A stretch of 64,000 bases of DNA from Clostridia bacterium (GTDB taxonomy: Bacteria > Bacillota > Clostridia > Christensenellales > DTU072). The stretch covers positions 9,948 through 73,947 of the forward strand of contig DAOSYK010000004.1 of NCBI GenBank assembly GCA_035381305.1. Reading direction: 5' to 3'. The notes under the pieces were generated by a model. The model did not search any database and had not been told where the DNA came from. It was given only the letters and a program-made list of their open reading frames with translations. The position numbers were made by a program, and so were the translations under genes. Shown piece after piece: positions 7,258-43,856 of this stretch. Each line of letters opens with the position of its first letter. Position 1 is the first letter of the stretch.

Positions 7258-7261
7258 GTGT

Positions 7262-7352: not shown

Positions 7353-7364
7353 AATATTTTTATC

Positions 7365-11450: not shown

Positions 11451-11495
11451 TTTCTCTATGTCCCATTAACTATATATTTCTCTTTTTGATTGTTT

Positions 11496-28295: not shown

Positions 28296-28548
28296 ATAAA
28301 AGCCGATCTTGCGTCGGCCTTTTGTAATTAAAATATACGCATGCAGTAAAAAACTGGCGTATACTTCATAACAAGTCAGCTCTCCGCAAATTGTTTTCTT
28401 GCGACAGTCGGGAAAATATTGTTTGTCCCGCCCAAGCGAATGGGTGCGTCTCTCCGATTCGCTTTCGGCACAACCCACCTTTTTCGGAGGAAAAACCGAC
28501 GCCGGCTTTGCTCCCCCCGATACTCATCAGATCGCGCGCCTCTAAACT
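28296..28548 (-). promoter_or_regulatory. lysine riboswitch (L-box) with terminator-type expression platform
   Basis: Minus strand reads AGAGGCGCGCGAUCUGAUGAGUAUCGGGGGGAGC…GUGCCGAAAGCGAAUCGGAGAG…GACUGUCGCAAGAAAA, matching the AGAGG(U/C)GC…GAGUA…GCCGAA…CUGUC core of the B. subtilis lysC L-box. It is followed by the hairpin aaaGGCCGA-cgcaaga-UCGGCuuuuAUUUUUU just before the dapA RBS. Confidence 0.85.
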
Positions 28549-28573
28549 GTTATCGAAATATATTGTTATATAT

Positions 28574-28641: not shown

Positions 28642-28679
28642 GTAAAAAGAAAGGGATTCGGACTTGTCCGAATCCCTTT
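28642..28679 (-). terminator. rho-independent terminator of the hydrogenase operon
   Basis: 12-bp stem AAGGGATTCGGA/TCCGAATCCCTT with a 4-nt loop, followed on the minus strand by TCTTTTT. It lies 23 nt after the hydA stop. Confidence 0.8.
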
Positions 28680-28701: not shown

Positions 28702-30447
28702 TCAATAGTTGTCTCTCTTGTGATACTTTGTATGGAGTATCTCGTGGGCCTTGTGGCTGTTGGGCTTTTCAAGATAAGTCTTGTAGAGCTCCTGAATAAT
28801 GGGGTTCTCATGCGATTTGCGGAGAGTGTTCTTCGCGTCGAAGGAGTAGATGGCTCCCGCACGGAGACCTCTGTAGTCCACGTTGTTGCGGATGTATCCG
28901 CCGACATGGGGCTGTCCGCCGCCGTTTACGCAGCCGCCGGGACAGCTCATTATCTCAATGAAGTGGTATTCGGCTTCTCCTGAGCGGATCTTATCCATAA
29001 GAACTTTGGCGTTGGCAAGACCGCTGGCTACAGCAACCTTGACATCCATACCCGCTACATGAACGGTAGCTTCCTTGATTCCTTTCATGCCGCGTACAGC
29101 CGTGTACTCGATGTTGGGAAGAGTTTTTCCCTCGAGGATTTCGGCAACGGTGCGCAGCGCAGCTTCCATAACGCCGCCGGTTGCGCCGAACAGCAAGCCC
29201 GCCGAAGAGGCGATGCCTAAAGGCGCGTCAAACTCGCTGTCCTCAAGCTGGCTGAACATGATGCCATGGAGCTTGATGAGCTTGGCAAGTTCTCTCGTCG
29301 TTATTGCGATATCGATGTCGGGTACGCCGGCAGCACTCTGGTCGGCTCTGCCTTTCTCGAATTTCTTCGCCGTGCAGGGCATAACCGAAACAACGATCAT
29401 ATCCTTGGGGTCTACGCCGATCTTCTCAGCATAGTAGGTCTTGCAGATCGCGCCGAACATCTGCTGGGGCGACTTGCAGCTGGAGAGATTGGGGATAAGG
29501 TCGGGATAGTTGTGCTCAACGTACTTGATCCATGCGGGCGAGCAGCTGGTAAGCATGGGGAGCGTACCGCCGTTCTGGAGCCTGCCGAGAAGCTCGGTGC
29601 CCTCTTCCATAATGGTGAGGTCGGCTGTGAAGTCGACGTCAAATACATTTTTGAAGCCCATCTTTCTGAGGGCGGCGACCATCTTGCCTTCCACGTTGGT
29701 GCCGATAGGATAGCCAAACTCTTCGCCGAGACCTACGCGTACCGAAGGAGCTGTTCCGACGATAACGTACTTGGACTTATCGTTGAGAGCGGCGATAACA
29801 TCGCTGACTTCCTCTCTCTCGGTGATGGCGCCTACGGGGCAGGCCGCTATGCACTGTCCGCAGCCTACGCAGGGCACGTCGTTGAGGTCTTTCTCAAAGG
29901 CGCAGCCGATGTGAGTGTCAAAGCCGCGGGCGTTGGGTCCGATGACCGAAATACCCTGATAGCCTTTGCACGCGGCAACGCAGCGGCGGCAAAGTATGCA
30001 CTTGTTGTTGTCCCTGACGATGTAGGGTGTCGAAGTGTCGAGAACAAACTCGTTCTTCGCGCCCGAAAATTTGTGGGAGTTGCAACCGAGCTCATCGCTG
30101 AGTTCCTGAAGTTCGCAGTTGCGATTTCTGGGGCAGCTCAAGCAGTTCTGGTCGTGGTCGGACAGCAGAAGCTCCACTGTGGTGCGGCGGCTGTCGAGAA
30201 CCTTCTTGGAGTTGGTGGTTACTTCCATACCTTCGCTTACGGGGAAAACGCAACTTGCAACAAGGCTTTTTGCACCCTTAACCTCGACAACGCACACACG
30301 GCAGGCGCCGATAGCGTTGATGTCGCGGAGATAACAGAGAGTAGGTATCTTTATTCCTGCTTTTTTAGCGGCGTCGAGGACGGTAGTTCCTTCGGGAACC
30401 GATATGTCCTGGCCGTTTATCTTTAAATTAACCATTTTAGCTTCCAT
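28702..30447 (-). CDS. hydA: [FeFe] hydrogenase catalytic subunit, HydABC/bifurcating (group A3-like) architecture
   Basis: 581 aa. Has an N-terminal plant-type 2Fe-2S region (CYLRD…CRVC), a His-ligated cluster (HDQNCLSCPRNRNC) and 2x[4Fe-4S]. The H-cluster motifs are MPCTAKKFE and EIMSCPGGCVNGGGQP. The L1 motif reads TSCSPAW rather than TSCCPxW. Confidence 0.9.
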   Translation of the reverse strand: MEAKMVNLKINGQDISVPEGTTVLDAAKKAGIKIPTLCYLRDINAIGACRVCVVEVKGAKSLVASCVFPVSEGMEVTTNSKKVLDSRRTTVELLLSDHDQNCLSCPRNRNCELQELSDELGCNSHKFSGAKNEFVLDTSTPYIVRDNNKCILCRRCVAACKGYQGISVIGPNARGFDTHIGCAFEKDLNDVPCVGCGQCIAACPVGAITEREEVSDVIAALNDKSKYVIVGTAPSVRVGLGEEFGYPIGTNVEGKMVAALRKMGFKNVFDVDFTADLTIMEEGTELLGRLQNGGTLPMLTSCSPAWIKYVEHNYPDLIPNLSSCKSPQQMFGAICKTYYAEKIGVDPKDMIVVSVMPCTAKKFEKGRADQSAAGVPDIDIAITTRELAKLIKLHGIMFSQLEDSEFDAPLGIASSAGLLFGATGGVMEAALRTVAEILEGKTLPNIEYTAVRGMKGIKEATVHVAGMDVKVAVASGLANAKVLMDKIRSGEAEYHFIEIMSCPGGCVNGGGQPHVGGYIRNNVDYRGLRAGAIYSFDAKNTLRKSHENPIIQELYKTYLEKPNSHKAHEILHTKYHKRDNY

Positions 30448-30456
30448 TTCTTCCTC

Positions 30457-32241
30457 CTACTTTCTAACAATGGCGTTGAACTTGCAGCTGTCCATACAAA
30501 CGCCGCACTTGATGCACTTTTCTTTGTCGATGACGTGCAGCTCTTTGACCTTGCCGGTTATGGCGCTGACGGGGCACTTCTTGGAGCACAGCGTGCAGCC
30601 CTTGCATGCGTCGGTGATCTCGTAGCTGAGGAGCGCCTTGCAAACGCCCGCGGGACATCTCTTTTCCAGGATGTGAGCTTCATACTCGTCACGGAAGTAT
30701 CTGAGAGTGCTGAGCACGGGGTTGGGCGCGGTCTGGCCGAGTCCGCAGAGTGCGTTTTCCCTTATGTAGTAGCAAAGCTGTTCCATGTCGGCGAGGTCCT
30801 GCATTGTCGCTTTGCCTTCGGTGATCATGTCGAGGTACTCGAGAAGTCTCTTGGTACCGATACGGCAGGGTGTGCACTTTCCGCAGGATTCGTCCTGTGT
30901 GAACTGCAGGAAGAACTTGGCTATGTCGACCATACAGTTGTCCTCGTCGAGAACGATAAGACCGCCGCTTCCCATCATGCTGCCGATAGCGATAAGGTTA
31001 TCGTAATCGATGGGGGTGTCGATGTGGGTATAAGGTATACAGCCGCCCGAAGGACCGCCGGTCTGGGCCGCTTTGAACTTCTTGCCGTTGGGTATGCCGC
31101 CGCCGATGTCCTCGATGATGGTACGGAGCGTGGTGCCCATGGGGATTTCCACAAGACCGGTGTTGACGATCTTTCCGCCGAGCGCGAACACCTTGGTGCC
31201 TTTGCTCTTCTCAGTGCCCATTGCGGCAAACCACTCTGCGCCCTTGAGTACGATCTGGGGCACGTTGGCGTAGGTTTCGACGTTGTTAAGCAGGGTGGGC
31301 TTTCCGAACAATCCTTTGTTCGCGGGGAACGGAGGACGGGGACGGGGCTCGCCGCGGCGTCCTTCGATGGACGTCATAAGAGCCGTTTCCTCGCCGCACA
31401 CGAATGCGCCGCTGCCCAACCTTACTTCGAGATCAAAGTCAAATCCCGAATCAAGTATGTTCTTTCCGAGCAGTCCGTATTCCTTAGCCTGCTGTATCGC
31501 GATGCCAAGTCTTTCTACGGCGATGGGGTATTCTGCACGGACATATACATAGCCCTGTTTTGCGCCGACGGCGTAACCTGCTATAGTCATAGCCTCGACT
31601 ATCGCGTGGGGGTCGCCTTCGAGAATGGACCTGTCCATAAACGCGCCGGGGTCGCCTTCGTCGGCGTTGCAGCAGACATACTTAAAGTCGCCGACTGCAT
31701 TCTTGGTGAGCTGCCACTTGATGCCGGTCGGGAATCCGCCGCCGCCGCGGCCTCTTAAGCCCGAGGCCTTGATGACGTCGACAACTTCCTGGGGCTGCAT
31801 GGAGGTAAGCACCTTGATGAGAGCCTGATAGCCGTCATAAGCTATGTACTCGTCGATGTTTTCGGGGTTGATAACGCCGCAGTTTCTGAGTGCGACGCGG
31901 GTTTGCTTCTTGTAGAAGTTGGTTTCCGAAAGCGCCTTGGTGATAGCTTCGGCGTTGGGGTCTTTGTAGAGAAGTCTCTTAACGAGTCTGCCCTTTACAA
32001 GGTGCTCGGAGACTATCTCCCCGACGTCCTCTACCGCAACTTGGGAATAGAACGCGCCTTCGGGATATACGATGATGACGGGACCCACGGCGCAGAGGCC
32101 GAAGCAGCCGGTTTTTACCAGCAATACGTCGTCGGTCAGGTTGTTTTCTTTTATTCTGGCGGCGAATTCGTCATATATCTCACTGCTGTGATTGGAATGA
32201 CAACCGGTTCCTCCGCAGACCAATACTGTACTTCTGAACAT
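30457..32241 (-). CDS. hydB: NADH-binding flavoprotein subunit of the hydrogenase (NuoF-like HydB/HndC)
   Basis: 594 aa. Has an N-terminal thioredoxin-like 2Fe-2S region, the FMN/NADH motif GRGGGGFPTG, the NuoF cluster motif CGKCTPCR, and a C-terminal 2x[4Fe-4S] (CKGCTLCSKKCP, CIKCGVCMDSC). Confidence 0.92.
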   Translation of the reverse strand: MFRSTVLVCGGTGCHSNHSSEIYDEFAARIKENNLTDDVLLVKTGCFGLCAVGPVIIVYPEGAFYSQVAVEDVGEIVSEHLVKGRLVKRLLYKDPNAEAITKALSETNFYKKQTRVALRNCGVINPENIDEYIAYDGYQALIKVLTSMQPQEVVDVIKASGLRGRGGGGFPTGIKWQLTKNAVGDFKYVCCNADEGDPGAFMDRSILEGDPHAIVEAMTIAGYAVGAKQGYVYVRAEYPIAVERLGIAIQQAKEYGLLGKNILDSGFDFDLEVRLGSGAFVCGEETALMTSIEGRRGEPRPRPPFPANKGLFGKPTLLNNVETYANVPQIVLKGAEWFAAMGTEKSKGTKVFALGGKIVNTGLVEIPMGTTLRTIIEDIGGGIPNGKKFKAAQTGGPSGGCIPYTHIDTPIDYDNLIAIGSMMGSGGLIVLDEDNCMVDIAKFFLQFTQDESCGKCTPCRIGTKRLLEYLDMITEGKATMQDLADMEQLCYYIRENALCGLGQTAPNPVLSTLRYFRDEYEAHILEKRCPAGVCKALLSYEITDACKGCTLCSKKCPVSAITGKVKELHVIDKEKCIKCGVCMDSCKFNAIVRK

Positions 32242-32253
32242 TGTTAATCCTCC

Positions 32254-32625
32254 TTACTCTTCCCCGACAAGATAGTCAACGCAGACTTTGCCGGCTACAA
32301 TATGTTGAGCTATTATATCTTTCGCCTTGGCGGGGTCAACCTTAACGTAAGTGACCTTGGGTTCGCCCGGCACAAATACTTCCACGATGGGCTCGAGTTT
32401 GCACATTCCGAGACATCCGGTGCGGGAAACTTTTACGCTTTTGAGATTGCGGTTCTGCACCTGCTCAACGAGTTCGTTGAAAACAGGTCTTGCACCCGCG
32501 GCGATTCCGCAGGTTGCCATACCGACGACAATGCGGGTCTCGGCGTTGGCGTCGCTGTTGTCGCGATTGAGAATCTGCGCCTGCATTTTTTCTCTTATCG
32601 CCTTGATGTCAGCTATTGTCTTCAT
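32254..32625 (-). CDS. thioredoxin-like [2Fe-2S] ferredoxin (HndB-like)
   Basis: 123 aa. The MATCGIAAGA…CLGMCKLEP pattern matches small HndB-type ferredoxins. Confidence 0.8.
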   Translation of the reverse strand: MKTIADIKAIREKMQAQILNRDNSDANAETRIVVGMATCGIAAGARPVFNELVEQVQNRNLKSVKVSRTGCLGMCKLEPIVEVFVPGEPKVTYVKVDPAKAKDIIAQHIVAGKVCVDYLVGEE

Positions 32626-33164
32626 AGATTTTTACCTCCGATTATGCTTTCGATGTTTTCTTGTATGTAGCTTTTCAGATAAACCATTGTCTCCGCGTCG
32701 TCTATGGGGACGGGGTCAAGTTCTCTCTTCACCTCGCGGGTGTCAAAAACGAATTCCTCGTTCTCATCCCGCACCGTCCAGACGAAATCGATATCGGGGT
32801 ACAACACCGTCGTTATCGTTTCGGCCACATCTCCTAAAGGCATTCTGTCGATGTGGTTTATAAGAAAGCTCGCATATACCCTGGTTCCCTTTCCTTTTTC
32901 CGACTCTATCGAGAAGTTTCCTCCCGCTGTTTCGGCCGCCATTTTCATAAGCGGTATCCCCAGTCCCACCTTTCTTGTCGTCCTGGTGGTGGAGAACGGA
33001 TCGGTGACCGTCTTTACAAATTCTTTGTCCATGCCCGTCCCGTTGTCGGCGATCTCGATATTTATGTACCCGTCCTTAACTTCTATGGTCACTTCAATCA
33101 GCGTGGCCTTTGCCTTGACCGAGTTTTCGACAATATCGAGGATGTGAAGGGACAGTTCTCTCAT
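32622..33164 (-). CDS. stand-alone GHKL (histidine-kinase-like) ATPase domain protein
   Basis: 180 aa with an N-box (EN), G1 DNGTGM and G2 GLGIPL. It has no DHp/His-phosphotransfer region, no TM segment and no receiver domain. It is translationally coupled on both sides inside the hydrogenase operon. Confidence 0.8.
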   Translation of the reverse strand: MRELSLHILDIVENSVKAKATLIEVTIEVKDGYINIEIADNGTGMDKEFVKTVTDPFSTTRTTRKVGLGIPLMKMAAETAGGNFSIESEKGKGTRVYASFLINHIDRMPLGDVAETITTVLYPDIDFVWTVRDENEEFVFDTREVKRELDPVPIDDAETMVYLKSYIQENIESIIGGKNL

Positions 33165-33665
33165 TTAGTCCTTGTACTTGGCAAGTATTCCGTCGACGTC
33201 TTTCGCCGTGAGCTTGCCGTAGACATTGTTGTTGATGTTGATAACCGGGGCAAGACCGCAGCAGCCTATGCACCTTGTCTCAACGAGTGAAAATTTGCCG
33301 TCGGCAGTGCATTCGCCGTTCTCTATGCCGAGGTTTTTGCTGATAGCGCTGAGAACGTCTCCCGCGCCCTTTACGTAGCACGCGGTGCCCATGCAGATGG
33401 AAACCTGATTCTTGCCCTGCGGGTTAAGCGTGAAGAACGAATAGAACGTGGCGATGCCGAACACTTCTTCAAGCGAGACATTCATACCTTCGGCGATAAT
33501 CTTCTGTACTTCAATTGGCAGATAGCCGTAGATGTTCTGTGCCGCCTGCATTATGGGCATAAGTCCGCCGGGAACGCTTTTGAATTCGTCCAGCTTCTTT
33601 CTCAACGCGGCTTCCTGTTCGGGAGTGCCCGCGAAAGGAACTTTCGTCAATTTGATTTTTGCCAT
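33165..33665 (-). CDS. hydC: NuoE-like [2Fe-2S] subunit of the hydrogenase (HydC/HndA)
   Basis: 166 aa with the NuoE cluster motifs CMGTACYVKG and CIGCCGLAP. Confidence 0.9.
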   Translation of the reverse strand: MAKIKLTKVPFAGTPEQEAALRKKLDEFKSVPGGLMPIMQAAQNIYGYLPIEVQKIIAEGMNVSLEEVFGIATFYSFFTLNPQGKNQVSICMGTACYVKGAGDVLSAISKNLGIENGECTADGKFSLVETRCIGCCGLAPVININNNVYGKLTAKDVDGILAKYKD

Positions 33666-33730
33666 TTATCCCTCCAGAATAAAATTTTTTAGCCGTGGCT
33701 TTTTGTGCGCGCTTGTGAGCGCACAGAAGC

Positions 33731-33759
33731 ATTATATCATAGCTTTTCGGTTTTTGAAA
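33731..33759 (-). promoter_or_regulatory. candidate promoter of the hydC-hydA operon (extended -10)
   Basis: Minus strand reads TTTCAA-17 nt-TGaTATAAT (attata at 33731-33736 on the plus strand). The -35 is weak and the extended -10 is strong. Confidence 0.45.
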
Positions 33760-33774
33760 CAAATTTTGAGTAAA

Positions 33775-34470
33775 TTATCGGATTTCCGAACGTAAAAAAT
33801 CAATTAAATTTTTGGCAGACAAACTCTCAAGTTCAATTAATCCGCAAGCTATGCCGATTTCGTCAAGAGAGTGGGCGTCGCTGTCGAAAATAAGCCGATG
33901 GTTTGCGGCGTATTGCTCCCTCGTTGACTCGTCCGCTTTATGGGACAATTCGAGCGCTGCATACCCTTCGGGTATACTTCCCAGAACTGCAATGACGCCG
34001 TATGCCTCTCTGTCGACGTGGGCGGGGATGGCTATGCCATGGTATTCGGCGGCCCTTTTCCCTATCTCGCTTTCGCTAATATCGGCGCTCAAAGCAAGCA
34101 AAGTAGGCTCCTCCCAAAAGTTGTCGTCCTCGTCGAAAATCAGCTGATTTCCGAAAACTTCGGGCCTGTTGAGTTTGGTGGTAAACGGTATGGAATTGTA
34201 AAAATTTTCAAGATCCGGGTAGCTCTCAAAAAGGCATAAAATATGGATATCCTCATTGGTCTGCACCTCGATCGCGGGTACTACAAGGATATCCATCAAC
34301 TTTCCGATTTCCATTGTCAGCCTGACGTTTTTTATGCTGTTGTGGTCGGAAACGGCTATTATTTCCAGTCCTTTCAGGCTTGCGGCCGCGACAATGTTGG
34401 CGGGCGACATATCGTTGTCGGCGCAGGGCGACAAGGCGCTATGGATATGAAGGTCATATAAATATTTCAT
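33775..34470 (-). CDS. PHP-domain phosphoesterase
   Basis: The start was set at MKYLYDLHIHSALSPCADNDM, a typical PHP N-terminal His motif. Further His/Asp motifs are AVSDHNS and IPAHVD. Confidence 0.8.
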   Translation of the reverse strand: MKYLYDLHIHSALSPCADNDMSPANIVAAASLKGLEIIAVSDHNSIKNVRLTMEIGKLMDILVVPAIEVQTNEDIHILCLFESYPDLENFYNSIPFTTKLNRPEVFGNQLIFDEDDNFWEEPTLLALSADISESEIGKRAAEYHGIAIPAHVDREAYGVIAVLGSIPEGYAALELSHKADESTREQYAANHRLIFDSDAHSLDEIGIACGLIELESLSAKNLIDFLRSEIR

Positions 34471-34474
34471 TTTC

Positions 34475-34789
34475 TCACATCTTTCTCGCCGCTTCAAATA
34501 CGGCAAGTTTTGTGGTAATAAGCGCGATTCCTTTATCGGCGACGGCTTTTTTCAGCTGTTCGTCGGGTTGCACGTCTTCGCAGAGCACGACGACGCTGAC
34601 GTCGGTCAGAGACGCTACCGCCGCGACGTTTGTGTTGTTCATAATCGTAAACCACGCCGAGTTTTCGGGGGCGCGGCTCATGACAAAGCTTAAAAAGTCG
34701 CCGCAATATCCGCCCGTAATCTCCCTTTCGGGAGCGGGAAGAGAAATTATCTTTGCGTTAAGCGCATTAATAAGCTCAGTTATTTTCAT
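34475..34789 (-). CDS. DRTGG-domain protein
   Basis: 104 aa. It is paralogous to the ORF at 36446..36805, and its size and pattern fit stand-alone DRTGG proteins. Confidence 0.65.
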   Translation of the reverse strand: MKITELINALNAKIISLPAPEREITGGYCGDFLSFVMSRAPENSAWFTIMNNTNVAAVASLTDVSVVVLCEDVQPDEQLKKAVADKGIALITTKLAVFEAARKM

Positions 34790-36014
34790 TTTTCCTCACG
34801 CAGCCGTTTTTGTCCACCACGCCGTTGACGACATCCTCGGCAAACGCCTTGCACGAAGGCGCGCCGCAGCTGCCGCAGTCGATAAGCGGCAGAGTGGCAA
34901 GAAGTTTTTCGATTTCGTCGAGTTTTTGCAATGCCAGCAATCTGTTTTCATCCAGCCTGAACACATCTTTGGTCTCGGGCACTTCCTCCCAGCGGTAAAA
35001 GTCAAGGGGCTTGCCCTCGCTCTCTATGCTGTTTTCCGCCTTGGGAAGTTTTTGCCTCAGCAGTCTCAATCTTGCTCGGGCGACAAAAGGGTTTTCGATA
35101 TTGAGAACGCCCCCTACGCAGCCGCTTGTGCAGGCGTTCAGCTCCACAAAGTCTATGTAGTTGAGCTTACCGTTTTCCATATCTTTTAAAACGGTGACGA
35201 CGTTTTCCATGCCGTCGGCGGCAAGGTATCTTGTAAGACCCGTTCCTATCGCCTCCCCGCTGCTGCTTGCCCAGTAAACGCCCGAAGCTCCGCTCTTTGC
35301 CATAGGCTTAAGCTCGGTAATCTTATCCATTACGGCGGTAAGCTTGAGGTAGACTTCGCTTGTGGAAAGCACTCCGTCCACGCAGGGCTTTTTAAGTCCC
35401 ATGCCCGTCTTTAACGCAAAGACCTTTGCAGGACACGGCGAGATGAAAAATACGCCTATGTCCTCTTCGGGAATGCCGTTTTTAATTGCTCTTTCGCGCG
35501 CAAGTCTTGCCGCGACGTCAACGGGCGCAAGCGTGTCTATAATGTGGTCTTTAAGTCCGTGATAGCCCATGATTATGAGTTCCACAACGGCAGGACATGC
35601 CGAGCTTATTATCGGCTTTTTTATCTTGCCCTCTTCGATTATCTTTTTGGTCGCTTCGGTGATAAGCTCGGCCGCGCTCGAAACTTCAAACACGTCGTCA
35701 AAGCCTATCATGAGCAGGCCGTTAAGCACTCTGTCTATCGAGTCAAGATTTTGGAACTGTCCGTACAACGACGGCGCGGGCAGCGCGATCTTGTACTTAT
35801 AGTTGTTGATAATGTCGAAGCTGTCGTAGGCGGGGAGTTTCGCCTGATGGGGGCAGACTCTCACGCACTCGGCGCACCCGATGCAACGCTCGTAAAGCAC
35901 CGTTGCCTTTCCGTTGCGCACCCTGATTGCCTCGGTGGGACACCTCTTCATGCAGGAAACGCAACCTTTGCACTTTGCCGGGTCGAGCATTACCGTATGT
36001 AAACTTTTGTCCAT
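34776..36014 (-). CDS. PAS-less [FeFe]-hydrogenase-like protein, putative sensory type (HydS-like)
   Basis: 412 aa. Has an N-terminal 2x[4Fe-4S] (CKGCVSCMKRCP, CIGCAECVRVCP). All four H-domain cluster Cys are retained, but the motifs are altered: SSACP (relay Cys replaced by Ala), SPCPAK and ELNACTSGCVGG. There is an extra C-terminal Cys4 motif, CGSCGAPSC…GC. Confidence 0.8.
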   Translation of the reverse strand: MDKSLHTVMLDPAKCKGCVSCMKRCPTEAIRVRNGKATVLYERCIGCAECVRVCPHQAKLPAYDSFDIINNYKYKIALPAPSLYGQFQNLDSIDRVLNGLLMIGFDDVFEVSSAAELITEATKKIIEEGKIKKPIISSACPAVVELIIMGYHGLKDHIIDTLAPVDVAARLARERAIKNGIPEEDIGVFFISPCPAKVFALKTGMGLKKPCVDGVLSTSEVYLKLTAVMDKITELKPMAKSGASGVYWASSSGEAIGTGLTRYLAADGMENVVTVLKDMENGKLNYIDFVELNACTSGCVGGVLNIENPFVARARLRLLRQKLPKAENSIESEGKPLDFYRWEEVPETKDVFRLDENRLLALQKLDEIEKLLATLPLIDCGSCGAPSCKAFAEDVVNGVVDKNGCVRKNENN

Positions 36015-36029
36015 CGCTTCTCCTGTAGT

Positions 36030-36449
36030 TTAGAAATAAACCGACAACGTAACCGTCGTGCCTTCGTTTACTTTGCTCTGAATATCGAACTCGTCGGAAT
36101 ACCGCTTCATGTTGGGAAGTCCCATACCTGCGCCGAAGCCCTGTTCGCGTATGGCGTCGGGCGCGGTGGAATAGCCTTCCTGCATTGCAAGCTCGATATC
36201 GGCAATTCCCGGGCCTTTGTCGGCGAGCACAATCTTTATTCTGTCTTCAAAAATGTCTACCAGCGCTCTGCCGCCGCCCGCGTGTATAACCATATTGATT
36301 TCGCCCTCGTACATAGCGACCGCCACCCGCCTTATCACCGCGGGATCGGTGCCGAGCTTCTTCAATGTGGACTTAACCTCGTTGGACGCGCTGCCGGCCG
36401 AAACAAAGTTGTTGCCGGCGACATCGAATTCAAGGTGTAAGGAATTCAT
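36030..36449 (-). CDS. SpoIIAB-like GHKL Ser/Thr protein kinase / anti-sigma-type ATPase
   Basis: 139 aa with an N-box (EGEINMVIH), G1 DKGPGI and G2 GFGAGMGLPN, which is the anti-sigma regulatory factor architecture. Confidence 0.75.
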   Translation of the reverse strand: MNSLHLEFDVAGNNFVSAGSASNEVKSTLKKLGTDPAVIRRVAVAMYEGEINMVIHAGGGRALVDIFEDRIKIVLADKGPGIADIELAMQEGYSTAPDAIREQGFGAGMGLPNMKRYSDEFDIQSKVNEGTTVTLSVYF

Positions 36450-36805
36450 ACATCGTGATCTCCGGCTTTTAGTCCGGCTTCATAAAGTCTGCCGCAGGCA
36501 TTGTACATTCTCATGCGGCTTGACAGTATCGCGATACCCCTTTCCTTGGCGAGCTCCATCATGTCGGGCGTAGGCGTCTTGCCCCTTACGAGCGCAATGC
36601 ACCTGATGTCCATCATGTCGGCAGTTCTGACAACCTGGGGATTGCACAGACCCGAAAGAAGCAGCGCCTGGTCCTTAAGAAATGCCAGAACGTCGCTCAT
36701 CATGTCGGACGCGCACGCAGACCTTATGTCGAGGTCGAGCAAATCTTCGCCGCAGCAAACTTTTGCGTCAAGTATTTCCACAATTTCTCTGATTTTCATA
36801 TACAC
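36446..36805 (-). CDS. DRTGG-domain protein
   Basis: 119 aa. It is paralogous to 34475..34789, starts 4 nt after the nadE stop, and overlaps the kinase-like gene by 4 nt. Confidence 0.65.
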   Translation of the reverse strand: MYMKIREIVEILDAKVCCGEDLLDLDIRSACASDMMSDVLAFLKDQALLLSGLCNPQVVRTADMMDIRCIALVRGKTPTPDMMELAKERGIAILSSRMRMYNACGRLYEAGLKAGDHDV

Positions 36806-36809
36806 TCCT

Positions 36810-37538
36810 TTAATCCGGAAATATTCTTCCCATTTTTTTCTTGTGCGAGGTAAAGGCTTTTGTCCTTTCTACCTTGGTCTTTGTCTCGTCGCTGCCCTCC
36901 CCCGTCCTTATATAACGGTCGAGGTCGGAATATTTTATGCCCATATCCTCTTCGTCGGTCTGCCCTTCAAAAAGTGCCGCCGAGGGCGCTTTTGCGATAA
37001 TCTTTTCGGGACATCCGAGGAACTTAAGCATTTCAAAAACTTCGCTTGCCGTGAGGTCGGCAATGGGGTTTAAATCAAACGCTCCGTCGCCCCACTTTGT
37101 GAAGTAGCCCATGGTGAATTCGCTCAGATTCCCCGTGCCGGCGACAAGACAACCTTTTCTCTGGGCGTAATTGTAAAGGGTTATCATTCTCAATCTCGGG
37201 TTCATGTTGGCGTAAGCCATGGGTGTCTGGCTCTCGTCAAGCGGCTCGAGCATACCGGCAAAAACTCTCTTTACGGGCGTGAGGTCGACTTCCAAAGTCT
37301 TTATGCCGTACTTCTCGTTGACAAGCAGCGCGTCGTCGCGGTCTTCGGCATAATTCCTTTTTGATTCGCACGGCATAATTATGCCTGTGACGTTATCATT
37401 CGCCATCTTGCACAGTATCCCCACAAGGGCGCTGTCCTTTCCGCCGCTCATGCCCAGAACCACGCCTTTTGCGTTGGCGTCGGCGAGAACTTTTTTTATC
37501 CACTCTACTCTTTGTCTTACAGATTGTGCTATGTCCAT
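36810..37538 (-). CDS. nadE: ammonia-dependent NAD+ synthetase
   Basis: 242 aa with the PP-loop SGGKDS motif and a NadE-like C-terminal region. Confidence 0.9.
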   Translation of the reverse strand: MDIAQSVRQRVEWIKKVLADANAKGVVLGMSGGKDSALVGILCKMANDNVTGIIMPCESKRNYAEDRDDALLVNEKYGIKTLEVDLTPVKRVFAGMLEPLDESQTPMAYANMNPRLRMITLYNYAQRKGCLVAGTGNLSEFTMGYFTKWGDGAFDLNPIADLTASEVFEMLKFLGCPEKIIAKAPSAALFEGQTDEEDMGIKYSDLDRYIRTGEGSDETKTKVERTKAFTSHKKKMGRIFPD

Positions 37539-37621: not shown

Positions 37622-38647
37622 TCAGATATTGTACTCTCCCGCAATTTCGGCGATTTTAACGGGTCGCTTCTCGATGAGCGACTTCTTTGCAGCAAGTCCG
37701 ATGAGAACGGGCTGCAGTCCGCAGTCAACGCCGACATCTGCTTTTTTGTCGTTTACCACGCAGTCGATAAACTCGGTGATTTCGTCGACATACGCCTGCA
37801 TATACCTCTCGAGGAAGAACAGCAGCGGCTTTTCGGCATGCACGCCCGTATCGTCGGAAATGACCGCCGAGCTCTGGGTGTCGTTGGAAATGGCGACCTG
37901 GCCTTTGCTTCCGAGCACTTCCACTCTCTGGTCATAGCCGTAGGACGCGCGGCGGCAGTTGTCGATAACGGCAAGGGCGCCGCTTTTCAATCTCATTGAA
38001 ATAATCGCCGTGTCAATGTCGCCGGCTTCGCCTATCGCGGGATCTACAAGCACCGCGCCGTAAGCGAACACTTCCTCAACTTCCTCTCCCGACATAAATC
38101 TCACCATATCGAAGTCGTGAATGGTCATGTCGAGGAAGATGCCGCCCGATACCTTAATATAGCTTACAGGCGGGGCACCCGGATCGCGGGAACAGATCTT
38201 GAGAACGTTGAGGTCTCCTACCTTTCCCGATTTTACCGCTTCACGCGCGGCGCGGAAGTTGTGGTCGAAGCGGCGGTTAAAACCTACCTGGAATTTGACG
38301 TTGCTGTTCTCCAGCGCTTTTTTAACTTCGAGTATTCTGTTTACGTCGTGGTCGATGGGCTTTTCGCAGAAGATGTGTTTGCCCGCCGCAATGGCCTCAA
38401 GGGAGATTTTGGAGTGGGTGTCGGTCGAGGAACAAATGAGTACTGCCTCGATTTCCTTGTCCTCGAGTATCTTGTGATAGTCGGTGTAAATGTTCTCCAC
38501 GCCCATGCCCTTTGCCCATTTTGCCGTGTCTTCACTCATAAACGGGTCGGCGATGGCCTTGACGCACGCGTTTTTGACATACCTTGTTATGGATTCGCAA
38601 TGAACCTTACCGATTCTGCCTGCTCCGATGATGCCTACTTTTACCAT
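37622..38647 (-). CDS. iolG: inositol 2-dehydrogenase (Gfo/Idh/MocA family)
   Basis: 341 aa with N-terminal VGIIGAGRIG. The call also rests on the iol operon context. Confidence 0.85.
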   Translation of the reverse strand: MVKVGIIGAGRIGKVHCESITRYVKNACVKAIADPFMSEDTAKWAKGMGVENIYTDYHKILEDKEIEAVLICSSTDTHSKISLEAIAAGKHIFCEKPIDHDVNRILEVKKALENSNVKFQVGFNRRFDHNFRAAREAVKSGKVGDLNVLKICSRDPGAPPVSYIKVSGGIFLDMTIHDFDMVRFMSGEEVEEVFAYGAVLVDPAIGEAGDIDTAIISMRLKSGALAVIDNCRRASYGYDQRVEVLGSKGQVAISNDTQSSAVISDDTGVHAEKPLLFFLERYMQAYVDEITEFIDCVVNDKKADVGVDCGLQPVLIGLAAKKSLIEKRPVKIAEIAGEYNI

Positions 38648-38670
38648 AAAAAATTTGCTCCTTTTGTTTA

Positions 38671-40173
38671 TCAGATTGTGCCGTCCCAGGTGGAAACGAC
38701 CGTTGATTTCTTTTCGTGCTCGTCAAACCAGTGGGTTGTGACCGTCTTCTGCTCGGTGAAGAACCTGTAGCTGTCCTTGCCCAGGCAGTGCAGGTCGCCG
38801 AAGAAGCTGTCCTTGTGCCCTGTGAAGCTGAATACGCCCACGGGCACGGGTATGCCGACGTTTATGCCCACCATGCCGCCGTGAGTATACCTTGCAAACT
38901 CCCGGGCGTAGTAGCCGTTCTGAGTGAATATAACGCTGCCGTTTGCAAAGGGATTGGCATTCATAACCGCAAGACCTTCCTCAAAGGTCTCCACGCGCTT
39001 TACGCAAAGGACGGGTCCGAATATCTCCCTCTGTCCTATCGTCATCTCGGGAGTAACCTTGTCGAAAATGGTGGGTCCCAAATAGAAGCCGTTTTCATAG
39101 CCTTCCACGACTACATTTCGCCCGTCGAGCACCAATTCGGCTCCCTCTTCGATACCTTTGGATATCCATTCGAGCACTTTTTGTTTGTGCTCTGCCGAGT
39201 AAACAGGCCCGAGCTTCGTGCTCTTGTCGTATGCGGGACCTATCTTGATCTTAGATGCAAGCTCTTTGATTTTGGCAACGAGCGCGTCGGCGATACCGTT
39301 CTGCGCGACGACGACGGGAAGCGCCATGCACCTTTCTCCCGCGCAGCCGTAAGCGGAGTTTATAATGCCTGCCGCCGTTCTGTCAAGGGCGGCGTCGTTG
39401 AGTACGAGTGCGTGGTTTTTCGCCTCGCACAGACACTGCACGCGCTTGCCGTTTTTGGCGGAGGTTTCATATACGTGACGGCCTACGGTGGTGGAGCCTA
39501 CGAAGGTCACGCCTTTGATTTTGGGATTGGTCAGAAGTTCCTGCGTGTCGTTTCTGTCACAGCTTATGATATTTAAAACGCCGCCGGGAAGTCCCGCTTC
39601 CTTATATAATTCGGCTATCTTAAGGCTGGTCATGGGAGTGGCTCCCGACACTTTAAGGATAATGGTGTTGCCGCAGGCGATACAGACCGGCGCCATCCAG
39701 CCCATCGGTATCATGGCGGGGAAGTTGAACGGAGCAATTCCCGCAAACACGCCGAGCGACTCCCTGTAGGACACGGTATCATAGCCGGTCGACGCGTCCA
39801 TAAGCGATTCGCCCGTGATGAGTGAAGGCATGCTTATGGCAAGCTCAAGCCCTTCTTTTGCCTTAAGCACATCGCCCTCGGCTTCGTCCCAGGTCTTGCC
39901 GTGCTCTTTGGCGCAGATGTATGTAAGTTCTTGCATTTTGGCGACGAGAAGTTCTCTCACCTTATAGAGTATCTGTACCCTCTTTATTATCGGCACTTTC
40001 GACCACGACTTGTACGCCTCGTGAGCGTTGTCGATAACTTGTTTTACCTCGCGAAGAGACAGTCTCGGCATGTTGGCGATATGCTCGCCCGTGCTGGGAT
40101 TGTATACCTCATAATACTTGTCGGTTTCCGACGCCACAAACTGATTGTTTGTAAAATACCTCAAAGTTTCCAT
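38671..40173 (-). CDS. iolA: CoA-acylating methylmalonate/malonate-semialdehyde dehydrogenase
   Basis: The start was set at METLRYFTNNQFV, after an AAGGAGGG RBS. It is an aldehyde dehydrogenase with a catalytic Cys region (GERCMA) and the MmsA-type C-terminus FTGHKDSFFGDLH. Confidence 0.88.
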   Translation of the reverse strand: METLRYFTNNQFVASETDKYYEVYNPSTGEHIANMPRLSLREVKQVIDNAHEAYKSWSKVPIIKRVQILYKVRELLVAKMQELTYICAKEHGKTWDEAEGDVLKAKEGLELAISMPSLITGESLMDASTGYDTVSYRESLGVFAGIAPFNFPAMIPMGWMAPVCIACGNTIILKVSGATPMTSLKIAELYKEAGLPGGVLNIISCDRNDTQELLTNPKIKGVTFVGSTTVGRHVYETSAKNGKRVQCLCEAKNHALVLNDAALDRTAAGIINSAYGCAGERCMALPVVVAQNGIADALVAKIKELASKIKIGPAYDKSTKLGPVYSAEHKQKVLEWISKGIEEGAELVLDGRNVVVEGYENGFYLGPTIFDKVTPEMTIGQREIFGPVLCVKRVETFEEGLAVMNANPFANGSVIFTQNGYYAREFARYTHGGMVGINVGIPVPVGVFSFTGHKDSFFGDLHCLGKDSYRFFTEQKTVTTHWFDEHEKKSTVVSTWDGTI

Positions 40174-40183
40174 TTTTCCCTCC

Positions 40184-41077: not shown

Positions 41078-41113
41078 AAATGTATCCTCGATATAAAAAG
41101 ATTCGATATTGTC

Positions 41114-43057: not shown

Positions 43058-43058
43058 A

Positions 43059-43853: not shown

Positions 43854-43856
43854 AAA

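What the first reader, a model, noticed from the sequence alone, without database searches (positions are those of the whole stretch)
33775..36805. PAS-less sensory-type [FeFe] hydrogenase embedded in a DRTGG / GHKL-kinase / DRTGG / PHP module directly upstream of HydABC: a putative H2-sensing partner-switch with no DNA-binding output
The 412-aa hydrogenase-like protein keeps the four H-cluster cysteines (SSACP, SPCPAK, ACTSGC). The position of the proton-relay Cys of TSCCP is Ala, the motifs are otherwise degenerate, and a C-terminal Cys4 motif (CGSCGAPSC…C) is added. These are features reported for putative sensory rather than catalytic [FeFe] hydrogenases. It lacks PAS, HK, MCP or phosphatase fusion domains. 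Instead it is flanked by separate genes: a SpoIIAB-like Ser/Thr kinase/anti-sigma ATPase (139 aa), two paralogous stand-alone DRTGG proteins, and a PHP phosphoesterase. All overlap or are nearly abutting (overlaps of 4 and 14 nt). No STAS antagonist, sigma factor or HTH protein is present. The kinase substrate (possibly the DRTGG proteins), the phosphatase (possibly PHP) and the output are therefore undefined. The simplest reading is a post-translational H2/redox sensing circuit acting on the adjacent bifurcating hydrogenase. As far as I know this mechanism has not been worked out experimentally.
Basis: partly seen in the sequence, partly recalled or inferred. Interest (0 to 1): 0.65.

Follow-up and report, generated by a model that had tools for sequence, protein, structure and literature searches.

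The report
Group D sensory-type hydrogenase gene cluster
This is one more copy of a very widespread, already described gene cluster in which a slow, probably hydrogen-sensing [FeFe] hydrogenase sits with kinase-like helper genes next to the main hydrogen-producing enzyme; nobody has yet shown how the signal is passed on.

Summary
Five co-oriented genes on the minus strand (DRTGG, a SpoIIAB-like GHKL ATPase, a 412-aa [FeFe]-hydrogenase-like protein, a second DRTGG, PHP) lie directly upstream of hydC, a second GHKL gene, a [2Fe-2S] ferredoxin gene, hydB and hydA.

The hydrogenase-like protein is a typical group D (M2e) "putative sensory" [FeFe] hydrogenase. It is 49% identical over its full length to a protein 99% identical to my reconstruction of TamHydS, the characterised member. 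It carries every group signature.

The same gene order occurs in Caldicellulosiruptor bescii, Thermoanaerobacter and Coprothermobacter. All five genes are present in order in 75 of 80 related genome loci.

Papers from 2012 and 2020 already call these enzymes sensory, because of the neighbouring kinases and the bifurcating hydrogenase. The core interpretation is therefore not new.

I found no paper that discusses the DRTGG and PHP genes. A strict partner-switch reading fails: there is no STAS domain, no PP2C phosphatase and no sigma factor.

New comparative points:
- A natural DRTGG–GHKL fusion exists.
- The module sits inside the hydC–hydA operon in 25 loci.
- The operon-internal GHKL gene often travels with the module.
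- The PHP protein resembles nucleic-acid/nucleotide phosphoesterases.

Verdict: a new member of a known kind, with the mechanism still open.

The parts
36446..36805 (-). DRTGG_a: stand-alone DRTGG-domain protein. The likely true start is the ATG at 36799, giving 117 aa.
   Evidence: Pfam PF07085, 30.7 bits. AlphaFold2 model with pLDDT 92.8, whose best PDB match is 2IOJ (a DRTGG protein), TM 0.84. D34 is 83/84 and S37 84/84 in the D-x-M-S-D-V-L motif (119-aa numbering). Overlaps GHKL_a by 4 nt. Fused to GHKL_a in a Thermovenabulum-type locus.
36030..36449 (-). GHKL_a: 139-aa SpoIIAB-like Bergerat-fold ATPase, a putative Ser kinase.
   Evidence: HATPase_c_2 and HATPase_c. TIGR01925 spIIAB at 58 bits, below its cut-off. 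Full-length alignment to SpoIIAB 1TIL, E 1e-8. The N box (E48, N52), G1 box (D77xG79xG81) and G2 box (G104-G110) are invariant in 82 orthologues.
34776..36014 (-). HydS: group D (M2e) putative sensory [FeFe] hydrogenase, 412 aa.
   Evidence: Domains 2x[4Fe-4S] Fer4 + Fe_hyd_lg_C + PF04060 FeS. A139-C140-P141, S192-P193-C194, C295/C299 and C380x2C383x4C388x16C405. 49% identity over 404 aa to P0121, which is 99% identical to my TamHydS reconstruction. Only 23% identity to the HydA of the same locus.
34475..34789 (-). DRTGG_b: second, more divergent DRTGG protein (104 aa). Overlaps the HydS 3' end by 14 nt.
   Evidence: PF07085 at 22.2 bits, sub-threshold. 20% identity and E 3e-9 to DRTGG_a. Orthologues hit PF07085. 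D31 and S34 are invariant in a D-x-L-S-x-V-M motif (84/84).
33775..34470 (-). PHP-family metal-dependent phosphoesterase (231 aa from the ATG at 34470).
   Evidence: PF02811. Metal-binding residues H8, H10, D42-H43, E68, H76, H151, D198 and H200 are invariant in 38 orthologues. The profile's best solved relatives are the PHP domain of Endonuclease Q (E 1e-11), then 3E0F, TM0559 and RNase AM. No PHP protein phosphatase matched at E<=1.
33704..33758 (-). Promoter-like site for hydC (TTCAAA-16-TATAAT with an extended TG), followed 6 nt later by the 7-bp inverted repeat TGTGCGC-N8-GCGCACA (33725-33704).
   Evidence: An extended -10 box followed by a GC-rich or hairpin element recurs upstream of hydC in related loci of both gene arrangements. 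These are consensus matches only; function is not shown.
33165..33665 (-). HydC (NuoE-like [2Fe-2S] subunit).
   Evidence: PF01257, E 2.5e-48. NuoE/HoxE NCBIfam matches.
32622..33164 (-). GHKL_b: 180-aa histidine-kinase-like ATPase encoded between hydC and the ferredoxin gene. Probably a sixth component of the regulatory module.
   Evidence: HATPase_c, E 1e-18. In 25 genome loci it directly follows PHP, with a median gap of -2.5 nt. About 38 of 44 informative GHKL_b-anchored metagenome loci carry the module; the counts are my hand tally of the listing. It follows PHP without hydB/hydA nearby in L134 and L140; in L144 it follows PHP with hydC-fdx-hydB-hydA upstream of the module.
32254..32625 (-). 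Small thioredoxin-like [2Fe-2S] ferredoxin (HydD-like).
   Evidence: Sub-threshold PF01257 and NCBIfam 2Fe-2S ferredoxin matches. Conserved in this position in nearly all loci.
30457..32241 (-). HydB (NuoF-like flavin/NADH subunit with extra Fe-S domains).
   Evidence: Complex1_51K, NADH_4Fe-4S, Fer4. nuoF_fam at 499.7 bits.
28702..30447 (-). HydA, the catalytic group A multimeric (HydABC-type) [FeFe] hydrogenase.
   Evidence: NF040763 'NADH-dependent [FeFe] hydrogenase, group A6' at 900 bits, above its cut-off of 765. Best solved relative is 7Q4V 'Iron hydrogenase HydA1', E 2e-213.
28650..28679 (-). Terminator-like hairpin (13-bp stem plus T run) ending the hyd operon.

Best explanation
The locus is an orthologue of the conserved group D (M2e) 'HydS' cluster that accompanies HydABC-type [FeFe] hydrogenases in Clostridia and their relatives.

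Shown here:
- The 412-aa protein is a full-length relative of TamHydS and carries all group D signatures.
- Its four flanking genes are conserved, mostly translationally coupled partners.
- The cluster is physically tied to hydC-GHKL_b-fdx-hydB-hydA.

Inferred mechanism:
1. HydS binds an H-cluster but turns over slowly because it lacks the proton-relay Cys. It reports H2 pressure or redox state through its C-terminal [4Fe-4S] domain.
2. This input modulates a split serine-kinase-like unit. DRTGG_a is the accessory domain and GHKL_a the catalytic ATPase; the two are fused in one lineage.
3. The PHP phosphoesterase, coupled to DRTGG_b, reverses or antagonises that step.
4. The second ATPase, GHKL_b, usually encoded next to PHP or hydC, belongs to the same circuit.
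5. The output is most likely control at the protein level (activity, assembly or electron routing) of HydABC-type complexes, because no DNA-binding gene is conserved at the locus and the module often lies inside the structural operon.

My probabilities:
- Group D HydS locus: about 0.95.
- Regulatory or sensory role: about 0.6.
- ATP-dependent phospho-switch of this particular wiring: about 0.3.
For: Identity:
- Domain architecture and motifs.
- 49% full-length identity to a TamHydS-like protein.
- The Cx2Cx4Cx16C motif and the C299/M353 replacements are those described for M2e enzymes.

Conservation:
- All five genes in order in 75 of 80 genome loci.
- Arrangement I (module, then hydC): 31 loci.
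- Arrangement II (hydC, module, then GHKL_b): 25 loci.
- Divergent arrangement: 3 loci.
- The same ten-gene order in C. bescii, Thermoanaerobacter and Coprothermobacter.

Coupling:
- Share of loci in which the two genes overlap or abut: DRTGG_a/GHKL_a 87%, HydS/DRTGG_b 78%, DRTGG_b/PHP 68%, PHP/GHKL_b 64%.

Fusion:
- The DRTGG_a-GHKL_a fusion P0382/P0391 (NCBI name: Thermovenabulum sp. ATP-binding protein) is seen on 9 contigs from several sources and sits in an otherwise standard locus.

Active sites:
- ATP-binding boxes of GHKL_a and metal ligands of PHP are invariant.

No conserved regulator:
- Clustering of the flanking ORFs finds none.

Expression:
- Metatranscriptome contigs from digesters cover the module and cross the DRTGG_a/GHKL_a, GHKL_a/HydS and HydS/DRTGG_b junctions.

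Literature:
- TamHydS has high H2 affinity and low turnover. H2-induced secondary-structure changes in TamHydS are cited.
Against: - No experiment links any of these proteins to signalling.
- TamHydS is catalytically competent, only slow.
- The partner-switch template does not fit: no STAS, PP2C or sigma factor is present.
- DRTGG_a has a DRTGG / HPrK-N fold.
- The PHP profile is closest to Endonuclease Q, nucleotidase-like and RNase AM PHP enzymes. It gives no match to PHP protein phosphatases, so its role as a protein phosphatase is a guess.
- Five loci carry the module with no hyd genes within 5 kb or more.
- Six GHKL_b loci lack the module. Linkage to HydABC is therefore strong but not absolute.
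- A conserved promoter-proximal GC-rich or hairpin element at hydC leaves room for transcriptional control by an unlinked factor.
Confidence: 0.55

Rival explanations
1. The output is transcriptional and goes through an unlinked factor. GHKL_a would act as a true anti-sigma factor or kinase towards a sigma factor or regulator encoded elsewhere. Alternatively the module would feed into Rex-type redox control, so that H2 status sets transcription of the hyd operon and fermentation genes.
For: - GHKL_a aligns over its full length with the anti-sigma factor SpoIIAB.
- In the related group C system of T. saccharolyticum, deleting hfsA or hfsB raises adhE transcript levels (PMC5707799).
- In the Thermovenabulum-type locus a Rex-like gene (Put_DNA-bind_N + CoA_binding) overlaps the start of the fused DRTGG-GHKL gene.
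- hydC has its own promoter-like site with an inverted repeat over the likely transcription start, and related loci have comparable elements.
- Land et al. report an AraC-family gene next to TamHydS.
Against: - No sigma factor, Rex or other HTH gene is conserved among the 80 loci.
- No Rex box lies near the operon; 3-mismatch matches occur at chance level.
- In 25 loci the module lies inside the structural operon it would regulate.
- The Thermoanaerobacter locus I fetched has no AraC gene beside the module.
Confidence: 0.25
2. The module is not a sensor. It would be an accessory, assembly, repair or electron-input system for HydABC. HydS would be a slow auxiliary hydrogenase or Fe-S electron entry module. 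The GHKL ATPases would be chaperone-like ATP-driven clamps. PHP would be a housekeeping phosphoesterase.
For: - TamHydS does catalyse H+/H2 interconversion.
- In arrangement II the module is co-transcribed between hydC and hydB/hydA, which is unusual for a low-copy regulator.
- Some GHKL-fold proteins are ATP-driven clamps rather than kinases (established knowledge of the GHKL superfamily).
- PHP resembles nucleic-acid and nucleotide hydrolases.
- GHKL_b also occurs directly upstream of rnfCDGEAB in two metagenome loci.
Against: - HydABC enzymes whose structures are solved (7Q4V, 8A6T, 7P5H) work as HydABC complexes. From my own knowledge, the A. woodii and T. maritima operons lack this module; I did not check this here.
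- GHKL_a is specifically SpoIIAB-like.
- The module can stand alone, away from hyd genes.
- The loss of the whole proton-transfer pathway is conserved across the group. That argues for selection for slow turnover.
Confidence: 0.12
3. Signalling runs through a small nucleotide rather than protein phosphorylation. PHP would hydrolyse a nucleotide or phosphodiester signal, and the DRTGG proteins would be its receptors or adaptors.
For: - The nearest solved relatives of PHP act on nucleic acids or nucleotides: EndoQ, a 3E0F-type phosphoesterase and RNase AM. NCBIfam matches include a 3',5'-nucleoside bisphosphate phosphatase and RNase RNM.
- DRTGG domains occur inside the nucleotide-regulated inserts of CBS-pyrophosphatases.
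- A DRTGG-PHP-GHKL_b triad exists with no hydrogenase gene nearby in L134.
Against: - In CBS-pyrophosphatases the nucleotides bind the CBS domains, not DRTGG (abstracts listed).
- The canonical GGDR part of the DRTGG motif is replaced in DRTGG_a (alignments).
- No cyclase or synthetase gene is present in the module.
Confidence: 0.08

Closest known systems
TamHydS, the group D (M2e) putative sensory [FeFe] hydrogenase of Thermoanaerobacter mathranii (Land et al. 2020, PMC8163306; Schumann et al. 2026, PMC13104023)
   Same: - Same domain order: 2x[4Fe-4S], H-domain, C-terminal Cx2Cx4Cx16C cluster.
- No PAS domain.
- SSACP (Cys299 to Ala) and SPC (Met353 to Ser).
- 49% identity over the full length.
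- A Thermoanaerobacter protein 96% identical to my TamHydS reconstruction lies in the same DRTGG-GHKL-HydS-DRTGG-PHP-hydC-GHKL-fdx-hydB-hydA order.
   Different: - A different, mesophilic digester lineage.
- Asn instead of Leu at the Met497 position (ELNAC versus EGLAC).
- 23 residues shorter at the C-terminus.
- No biochemical data exist for this protein.
Group C (M2f) HydS systems: Thermotoga maritima HydS, Ruminococcus albus HydS, Thermoanaerobacterium saccharolyticum HfsB
   Same: - H-domain lacking the proton-relay Cys.
- Extra C-terminal [4Fe-4S] motif.
- Encoded near multimeric group A hydrogenases and Ser/Thr kinase genes, with phosphatase genes too by my recollection.
- Genetic evidence for a regulatory role in T. 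saccharolyticum.
   Different: - Group C enzymes carry a fused PAS domain. By my recollection, not tested here, they pair with PP2C-type phosphatases.
- This locus has no PAS domain and has DRTGG and PHP genes instead.
SpoIIAB-SpoIIAA-SpoIIE / RsbW-RsbV-RsbU partner-switching modules
   Same: GHKL_a is a minimal (139-aa) Bergerat-fold protein that aligns end to end with SpoIIAB and RsbW and keeps their ATP-binding boxes. A hydrolase gene is co-encoded.
   Different: - No STAS antagonist is present; the small partners have a DRTGG fold.
- The hydrolase is a PHP enzyme, not PP2C.
- No sigma factor is encoded in the locus.
HPr kinase/phosphorylase (HPrK/P)
   Same: The DRTGG_a model superposes on the N-terminal domain of HPrK/P (1KO7, 1KNX). 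In the Thermovenabulum-type fusion a DRTGG-like domain precedes a serine-kinase-like domain, as it does in HPrK/P.
   Different: The catalytic domain here is GHKL, not the P-loop kinase of HPrK/P. There is no link to HPr or carbon catabolite control.
Regulatory [NiFe] hydrogenase HoxBC with HoxJ/HoxA (Ralstonia/Cupriavidus)
   Same: The concept is the same: a slow hydrogenase used as an H2 sensor that controls a metabolic hydrogenase through an ATP-dependent kinase (summarised).
   Different: - An unrelated metal site and protein family.
- HoxJ is a PAS histidine kinase with a response-regulator output (HoxA).
- Here there is no HisKA/DHp domain, no receiver domain and no DNA-binding partner.

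Membership tests
Group D (M2e) [FeFe] hydrogenase (TamHydS type) | [quoted passage not shown] | tested here: met
   Fer4_10, Fer4, Fer4_9 and Fer4_7 hits at residues 8-58. C15/C18/C21/C25 and C44/C47/C50/C54 are invariant.
Group D (M2e) [FeFe] hydrogenase (TamHydS type) | H-domain with the four H-cluster cysteines | tested here: met
   PF02906, E 2.7e-31. C140, C194, C295 and C299 are invariant in 15 relatives and conserved in nearly all of about 80 loci.
Group D (M2e) [FeFe] hydrogenase (TamHydS type) | Proton-relay Cys (CpI C299) absent, and Met353 replaced by Ser or Thr | tested here: met
   A139 and S192 are invariant. IS(S/T)ACPA is found in 70 of 80 loci and FISPC in 79 of 80. This matches the description in PMC8163306.
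Group D (M2e) [FeFe] hydrogenase (TamHydS type) | C-terminal Cx2Cx4Cx16C cluster motif and no PAS domain | tested here: met
   C380, C383, C388 and C405 have exactly this spacing. PF04060 FeS, E 1.2e-10. No PAS hit.
Group D (M2e) [FeFe] hydrogenase (TamHydS type) | Closer to TamHydS than to group A enzymes | tested here: met
   49% identity over 404 aa to P0121, which is 99% identical to my reconstruction of TamHydS from the published coding sequence. Against that, 23% identity to the locus's own HydA and E 1e-8 to CpI. No formal phylogeny with group B and group C references was built.
Group D (M2e) [FeFe] hydrogenase (TamHydS type) | Binds an H-cluster, with high H2 affinity and low turnover | not testable with these tools
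   This needs expression, maturation with a [2Fe]adt mimic, and FTIR, EPR or electrochemistry.
Group C (M2f) sensory [FeFe] hydrogenase | PAS domain fused C-terminal to the extra [4Fe-4S] motif | tested here: not met
   No PAS family hit at E<=0.01. The protein ends 7 residues after the last Cys of the motif.
Partner-switching module (SpoIIAB/RsbW type) | GHKL serine kinase / anti-sigma factor | tested here: met
   Met by sequence only. TIGR01925 at 58 bits, below its equivalog cut-off of 135. Full-length alignment to SpoIIAB structures, E 1e-8. ATP-binding boxes invariant. Kinase activity was not tested.
Partner-switching module (SpoIIAB/RsbW type) | STAS-domain antagonist phosphorylated on Ser/Thr | tested here: not met
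   No STAS hit in any of the ten proteins. The DRTGG_a model matches DRTGG, HPrK-N and MurE-N folds, and no STAS protein appears among the matches at E<=0.001.
Partner-switching module (SpoIIAB/RsbW type) | PP2C (SpoIIE/RsbU) phosphatase and a sigma-factor or other output partner | tested here: not met
   The only hydrolase is PHP. No sigma-factor or HTH gene is conserved in the 80 loci.
Two-component histidine kinase system | HisKA/DHp phospho-acceptor domain and a receiver-domain partner | tested here: not met
   GHKL_a and GHKL_b have only the HATPase domain. There are no HisKA or Response_reg hits.
HydABC-type multimeric group A [FeFe] hydrogenase (the neighbouring enzyme) | HydA with an N-terminal [2Fe-2S]/NuoG-like domain, plus NuoF-like HydB and NuoE-like HydC | tested here: met
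   NF040763 at 900 bits, above its cut-off of 765. nuoF_fam at 499.7 bits. PF01257, E 2.5e-48. Best solved relatives are 7Q4V and 8A6T. Whether the enzyme bifurcates or is simply NADH-dependent cannot be told from sequence here.

The most novel reading that the evidence does not exclude
DRTGG + GHKL + PHP would be a previously unrecognised type of ATP-dependent signalling cassette, a non-STAS and non-PP2C analogue of partner switching. It would use a group D hydrogenase as its H2 input and include the operon-internal GHKL_b as a sixth component. It would act directly on ferredoxin/NAD-linked complexes: HydABC, and perhaps Rnf. The DRTGG-PHP-GHKL_b triad found without any hydrogenase (L134) would be the minimal core.
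Probability: 0.2. Interest if true: 0.75.

Novelty: new member of a known kind. Interest (0 to 1): 0.3.

Why it matters
Group D HydS loci sit next to the main H2-evolving or bifurcating hydrogenase in a very large number of fermentative Firmicutes. There are at least 8000 protein clusters, and they include biofuel organisms and gut and digester bacteria. How these cells sense H2 pressure and re-route electrons between H2, ethanol and lactate is an open question with practical weight.

This window adds no new kind of system. The comparative analysis does sharpen which proteins to test:
- the DRTGG_a-GHKL_a pair as one functional unit;
- DRTGG_b-PHP(-GHKL_b) as a second unit;
- the absence of any conserved DNA-binding partner.

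Tried and rejected
- Rex operator search (TTGTGAA-N4-TTCACAA, up to 3 mismatches). It gave 3 matches against 2.96 expected, none in a promoter position. Rejected.
- PDB search with the single PHP sequence found nothing. A profile of 38 orthologues was needed.
I relied on the profile-versus-PDB result instead.
- Poudel et al. 2016 and Calusinska et al. 2010, probably the papers that first described the flanking kinases, are not held. Their content is cited only through Carere 2012 and Land 2020.
- The supplement of a C. thermocellum absolute proteomics paper had no entries for the orthologous genes, assuming my Clo1313 numbering.
- The TamHydS coding sequence in the 2026 supplement carries OCR frameshifts. 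I hand-corrected the translation and used it only to retrieve the true database protein, which is 99% identical.
- DRTGG-containing long proteins P0267, P0336 and P0288 (SPOR, peptidase M3 and ArgJ fusions) look like gene-call or assembly chimeras and were not used. The DRTGG-HydS fusion P0340 is a singleton on a 2.4-kb contig and counts only as weak evidence.
- The idea that the invariant Ser of the DRTGG proteins equals the canonical 'AMS' serine of DRTGG domains could not be settled from the 2IOJ alignment.
- nadE upstream is present in only 24 of 80 loci. I treat it as lineage synteny, not as part of the module.

Full report
**1. Observation**

ORF listing shows ten co-oriented genes on the minus strand between 28702 and 36805.
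- DRTGG_a, 36446-36805.
- GHKL_a, 36030-36449, 139 aa. Its best NCBIfam match is anti-sigma F factor SpoIIAB.
- A 412-aa protein, 34776-36014, with two ferredoxin-type [4Fe-4S] motifs, the [FeFe]-hydrogenase large-subunit domain and a C-terminal PF04060 'FeS' domain.
- DRTGG_b, 34475-34789. It scores just under the Pfam threshold but matches DRTGG_a at E 3e-9.
- A PHP phosphoesterase, 33775-34470.

No PAS, HisKA, MCP, PP2C, STAS or HTH domain is present in any of them. Downstream follow:
- hydC (NuoE-like);
- a second GHKL ATPase (GHKL_b);
- a small [2Fe-2S] ferredoxin;
- hydB (NuoF-like);
- hydA, which scores 900 bits on NCBIfam 'NADH-dependent [FeFe] hydrogenase, group A6' against a cut-off of 765.

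A strong terminator-like hairpin ends the operon. The overlaps of 4 and 14 nt are real. The likely true starts of DRTGG_a (ATG at 36799, behind an AGGAG site) and PHP (ATG at 34470) differ slightly from the longest ORFs.

**2. What the hydrogenase-like protein is**

An alignment with 14 database relatives shows these residues to be invariant:
- A139-C140-P141 (SSACP; the CpI C299 position is Ala);
- S192-P193-C194 (the Met353 position is Ser);
- C295 and C299;
- C380-x2-C383-x4-C388-x16-C405.

This is the description of the M2e / group D enzymes given by Land et al. 2020. They list two N-terminal clusters, a C-terminal Cx2Cx4Cx16C motif, no C299, Met353 changed to a hydroxyl residue, no PAS domain, and a gene position upstream of a trimeric group A enzyme (PMC8163306).

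I took the TamHydS coding sequence from the supplement of Schumann et al. 2026. It contains OCR frameshifts, so a tblastn of the raw text gives three segments at 34-50% identity. A hand-corrected translation retrieved a database protein, P0121, that is 99% identical to it. The window protein is 49% identical to P0121 over 404 residues with all motifs in register. By contrast it is 23% identical to the HydA of its own locus and matches CpI only at E about 1e-8. No group D structure is in the PDB. The family is very large, with at least 8000 clusters at E<=1e-10.

**3. Conservation of the neighbourhood**

A scan of one genome per species returned 80 loci at 50-85% identity, mostly uncultured Christensenellales, Oscillospiraceae and other Clostridia. 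I mapped the ten window proteins onto six-frame ORFs of these loci.
- All five module genes occur in the same order and strand in 75 loci. The other 5 lack part of the module on their contig; at least 3 of them are cut at a contig end.
- 31 loci have the window's arrangement: module, then a spacer of 126-214 nt, then hydC.
- 25 loci have hydC upstream, so the module lies inside the operon between hydC and GHKL_b.
- 3 loci have a divergent arrangement.
- 5 loci have at least 5 kb on both sides and no hyd genes. In one of these the neighbour is a convergent rnf operon.
- 11 loci are too short to tell.

Share of loci in which adjacent genes overlap or abut:

| Gene pair | Share |
|---|---|
| DRTGG_a / GHKL_a | 87% |
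| HydS / DRTGG_b | 78% |
| DRTGG_b / PHP | 68% |
| PHP / GHKL_b (arrangement II) | 64% |

The identical ten-gene order is found in three distant organisms:
- Caldicellulosiruptor bescii;
- a Thermoanaerobacter whose HydS is 96% identical to my TamHydS reconstruction;
- Coprothermobacter platensis.

Clustering all other flanking ORFs finds no conserved regulator. The most frequent extra neighbour is nadE, in 24 of 80 loci, which looks like lineage synteny.

**4. What is already published**

Carere et al. 2012 list Athe_1292, Csac_1857, Cthe_0335, Cphy_3798 and Teth39_1463 as 'D M2e' enzymes. [quoted passage not shown] Land et al. 2020 reach the same hypothesis from biochemistry and note the flanking histidine-kinase-like ATPase. 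Later work still calls the role putative and the signalling route unknown.

Full-text searches for DRTGG together with hydrogenase, and for 'DRTGG domain', found no paper that discusses the DRTGG or PHP genes of these loci.

**5. The accessory proteins**

*GHKL_a.* It aligns end to end with SpoIIAB (1TIL, E 1e-8) and RsbW. Its N, G1 and G2 ATP-binding boxes are invariant in 82 orthologues.

*DRTGG_a.* It is the best conserved small protein, with invariant S37 inside D-x-M-S-D-V-L (119-aa numbering). DRTGG_b shares a D-x-L-S-x-V-M motif with invariant D31 and S34. An AlphaFold2 model of DRTGG_a (pLDDT 92.8) matches the following structures, and no STAS protein appears among the matches at E<=0.001:
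- the DRTGG protein 2IOJ (TM 0.84);
- the DRTGG domain of CBS-pyrophosphatase;
- the N-terminal domain of HPr kinase/phosphorylase.

*Fusions.* An exhaustive search of 1.84 billion representative proteins with DRTGG_a found 1498 relatives, nearly all about 115-130 aa. Among the longer ones:
- P0382 (270 aa) is a DRTGG_a-GHKL_a fusion. Its cluster has three members on 9 contigs from several sources, including an NCBI Thermovenabulum protein. It sits in an otherwise standard locus whose first gene is a Rex-like repressor overlapping the fusion gene by 4 nt.
- A DRTGG-HydS fusion, P0340, is a singleton and only weak evidence.

*PHP.* A profile of 38 PHP orthologues keeps all metal ligands. Its best solved relatives are the PHP domain of Endonuclease Q (E 1e-11), then the phosphoesterase 3E0F, TM0559, RNase AM and PolC PHP domains. 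No PHP protein phosphatase appears at E<=1.

**6. The operon-internal GHKL_b**

I anchored a metagenome scan on GHKL_b.
- About 38 of 44 loci with enough flank also carry the module (my hand tally of the listing).
- Six loci do not. Three are plain hydC-GHKL_b-fdx-hydB(-hydA) loci, one has GHKL_b alone near a contig end, and two have GHKL_b directly upstream of rnfCDGEAB.
- In L144 the order is hydC-fdx-hydB-hydA, one unrelated gene, the module, then GHKL_b. Here GHKL_b travels with the module and not with the enzyme.
- L140 has a degenerate module followed by GHKL_b and fdx, with no hydB or hydA.
- L134 has only DRTGG-PHP-GHKL_b, with no hydrogenase gene within about 9 kb.

GHKL_b is therefore best viewed as a frequent sixth member of the module.

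**7. Expression**

The window comes from a digester/sludge Clostridia lineage. Metatranscriptome contigs from four runs match hydA-hydC and the module at 95-100% identity. Single contigs cross the DRTGG_a/GHKL_a, GHKL_a/HydS and HydS/DRTGG_b junctions. This is consistent with co-transcription, but DNA carry-over cannot be excluded.

In the window, hydC has its own promoter-like site: TTCAAA, a 16-nt spacer, then TATAAT preceded by an extended TG. A 7-bp inverted repeat follows directly. Comparable promoter-plus-GC-rich or hairpin elements precede hydC in related loci of both arrangements.

**8. Mechanism**

Shown:
- identity of the sensor class;
- conserved, translationally coupled partners;
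- linkage to HydABC-type operons;
- intact ATP-binding and metal sites;
- one robust DRTGG_a-GHKL_a fusion.

Inferred:
1. HydS reports H2 or redox state.
2. DRTGG_a plus GHKL_a form one kinase-like unit. The fusion, and the HPrK/P-like 'DRTGG-type domain then kinase' order, favour DRTGG_a as an accessory domain rather than a free substrate.
3. DRTGG_b, PHP and often GHKL_b form a second unit that opposes or relays the first.
4. The output acts on HydABC-type complexes at the protein level.

The weakest steps are the identity of the phospho-acceptor, the chemistry of PHP and the target. The rival explanations, each with the result that would refute it, are given in their own section:
- a transcriptional output through an unlinked factor;
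- an accessory or assembly role;
- a nucleotide-based signal.

**9. Verdict**

The locus is a new member of a known kind. Its remaining interest lies in the unexplored DRTGG/GHKL/PHP partners, for which the comparative data here give concrete, testable pairings.

Noticed in passing
window 28369-28552 (-): A lysine riboswitch (RF00168, 82 bits) lies just downstream of the hyd terminator and upstream of a dihydrodipicolinate synthase gene (27389-28276, PF00701).
   Followed up: partly
window 7249-7363 (-): A molybdenum/tungsten cofactor riboswitch (RF01055, 52.7 bits against a gathering score of 36).
   Followed up: no
window 28702-30447 (-), HydA residues about 297-325: The catalytic HydA has TSCSP and LSSCKSP where CpI has TSCCP and LSSAKSP. 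That puts Ser at the CpI C300 position and Cys at the A321 position. The solved protein 7Q4V 'Iron hydrogenase HydA1' shows the same pair. TSCSP is found in 47 of 51 related HydA sequences. Where both motifs could be read, CS paired with C in 25 of 30. I did not work out which Cys ligates the cubane.
   Followed up: partly
window 36810-37538 (-): An NH3-dependent NAD+ synthetase gene (PF02540, E 7e-68) ends 4-10 nt before DRTGG_a, and the ribosome-binding site of DRTGG_a overlaps its stop codon. It has a promoter-like site at 37588-37560, so the module may be co-transcribed with nadE. nadE holds this position in only 24 of 80 related loci.
   Followed up: partly
window 33704-33725 (-): The perfect 7-bp inverted repeat TGTGCGC-N8-GCGCACA lies 6 nt downstream of the hydC -10 box. 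Related loci have GC-rich palindromes (for example CGCGCATATGCGCG in L008) or other hairpins at the same place. It could be an operator or a stabilising stem-loop at the 5' end of the mRNA.
   Followed up: partly
window 37622-44873 (-): The genes upstream of nadE look, from their translations, like a myo-inositol catabolism set: a Gfo/Idh/MocA dehydrogenase, a methylmalonate-semialdehyde dehydrogenase-like protein, a TIM-barrel IolE-like protein, a ThDP-dependent IolD-like protein, an IolB-like protein and a PfkB-kinase IolC-like protein. I did not run them through family searches.
   Followed up: no
L084/L085 7372-8813: In a Thermovenabulum-type locus a Rex-like repressor gene (Put_DNA-bind_N + CoA_binding) overlaps by 4 nt the start of a fused DRTGG-GHKL gene that heads the HydS module. 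An rnfC-like gene follows hydA.
   Followed up: partly
L136 and L146 (about 9947-15650); L134 8848-10528: GHKL_b homologues occur directly upstream of rnfCDGEAB operons with no hydrogenase genes. A DRTGG-PHP-GHKL_b triad occurs alone next to a 2666-aa protein gene. The cassette may therefore serve more than HydABC.
   Followed up: partly
P0031 (456 aa; alignment A1, columns 423-467): One HydS relative carries a second copy of the C-terminal Cys4 motif (NCGKCGQRTCRQFARNVVFGDTVAEKC) after the first. This is a tandem duplication of the putative signalling cluster domain.
   Followed up: no
L098, L122, L160, L163: Some metagenome loci carry two sets of hydrogenase genes, hydC/B/A or part of them, either flanking or following one HydS module.
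   Followed up: no
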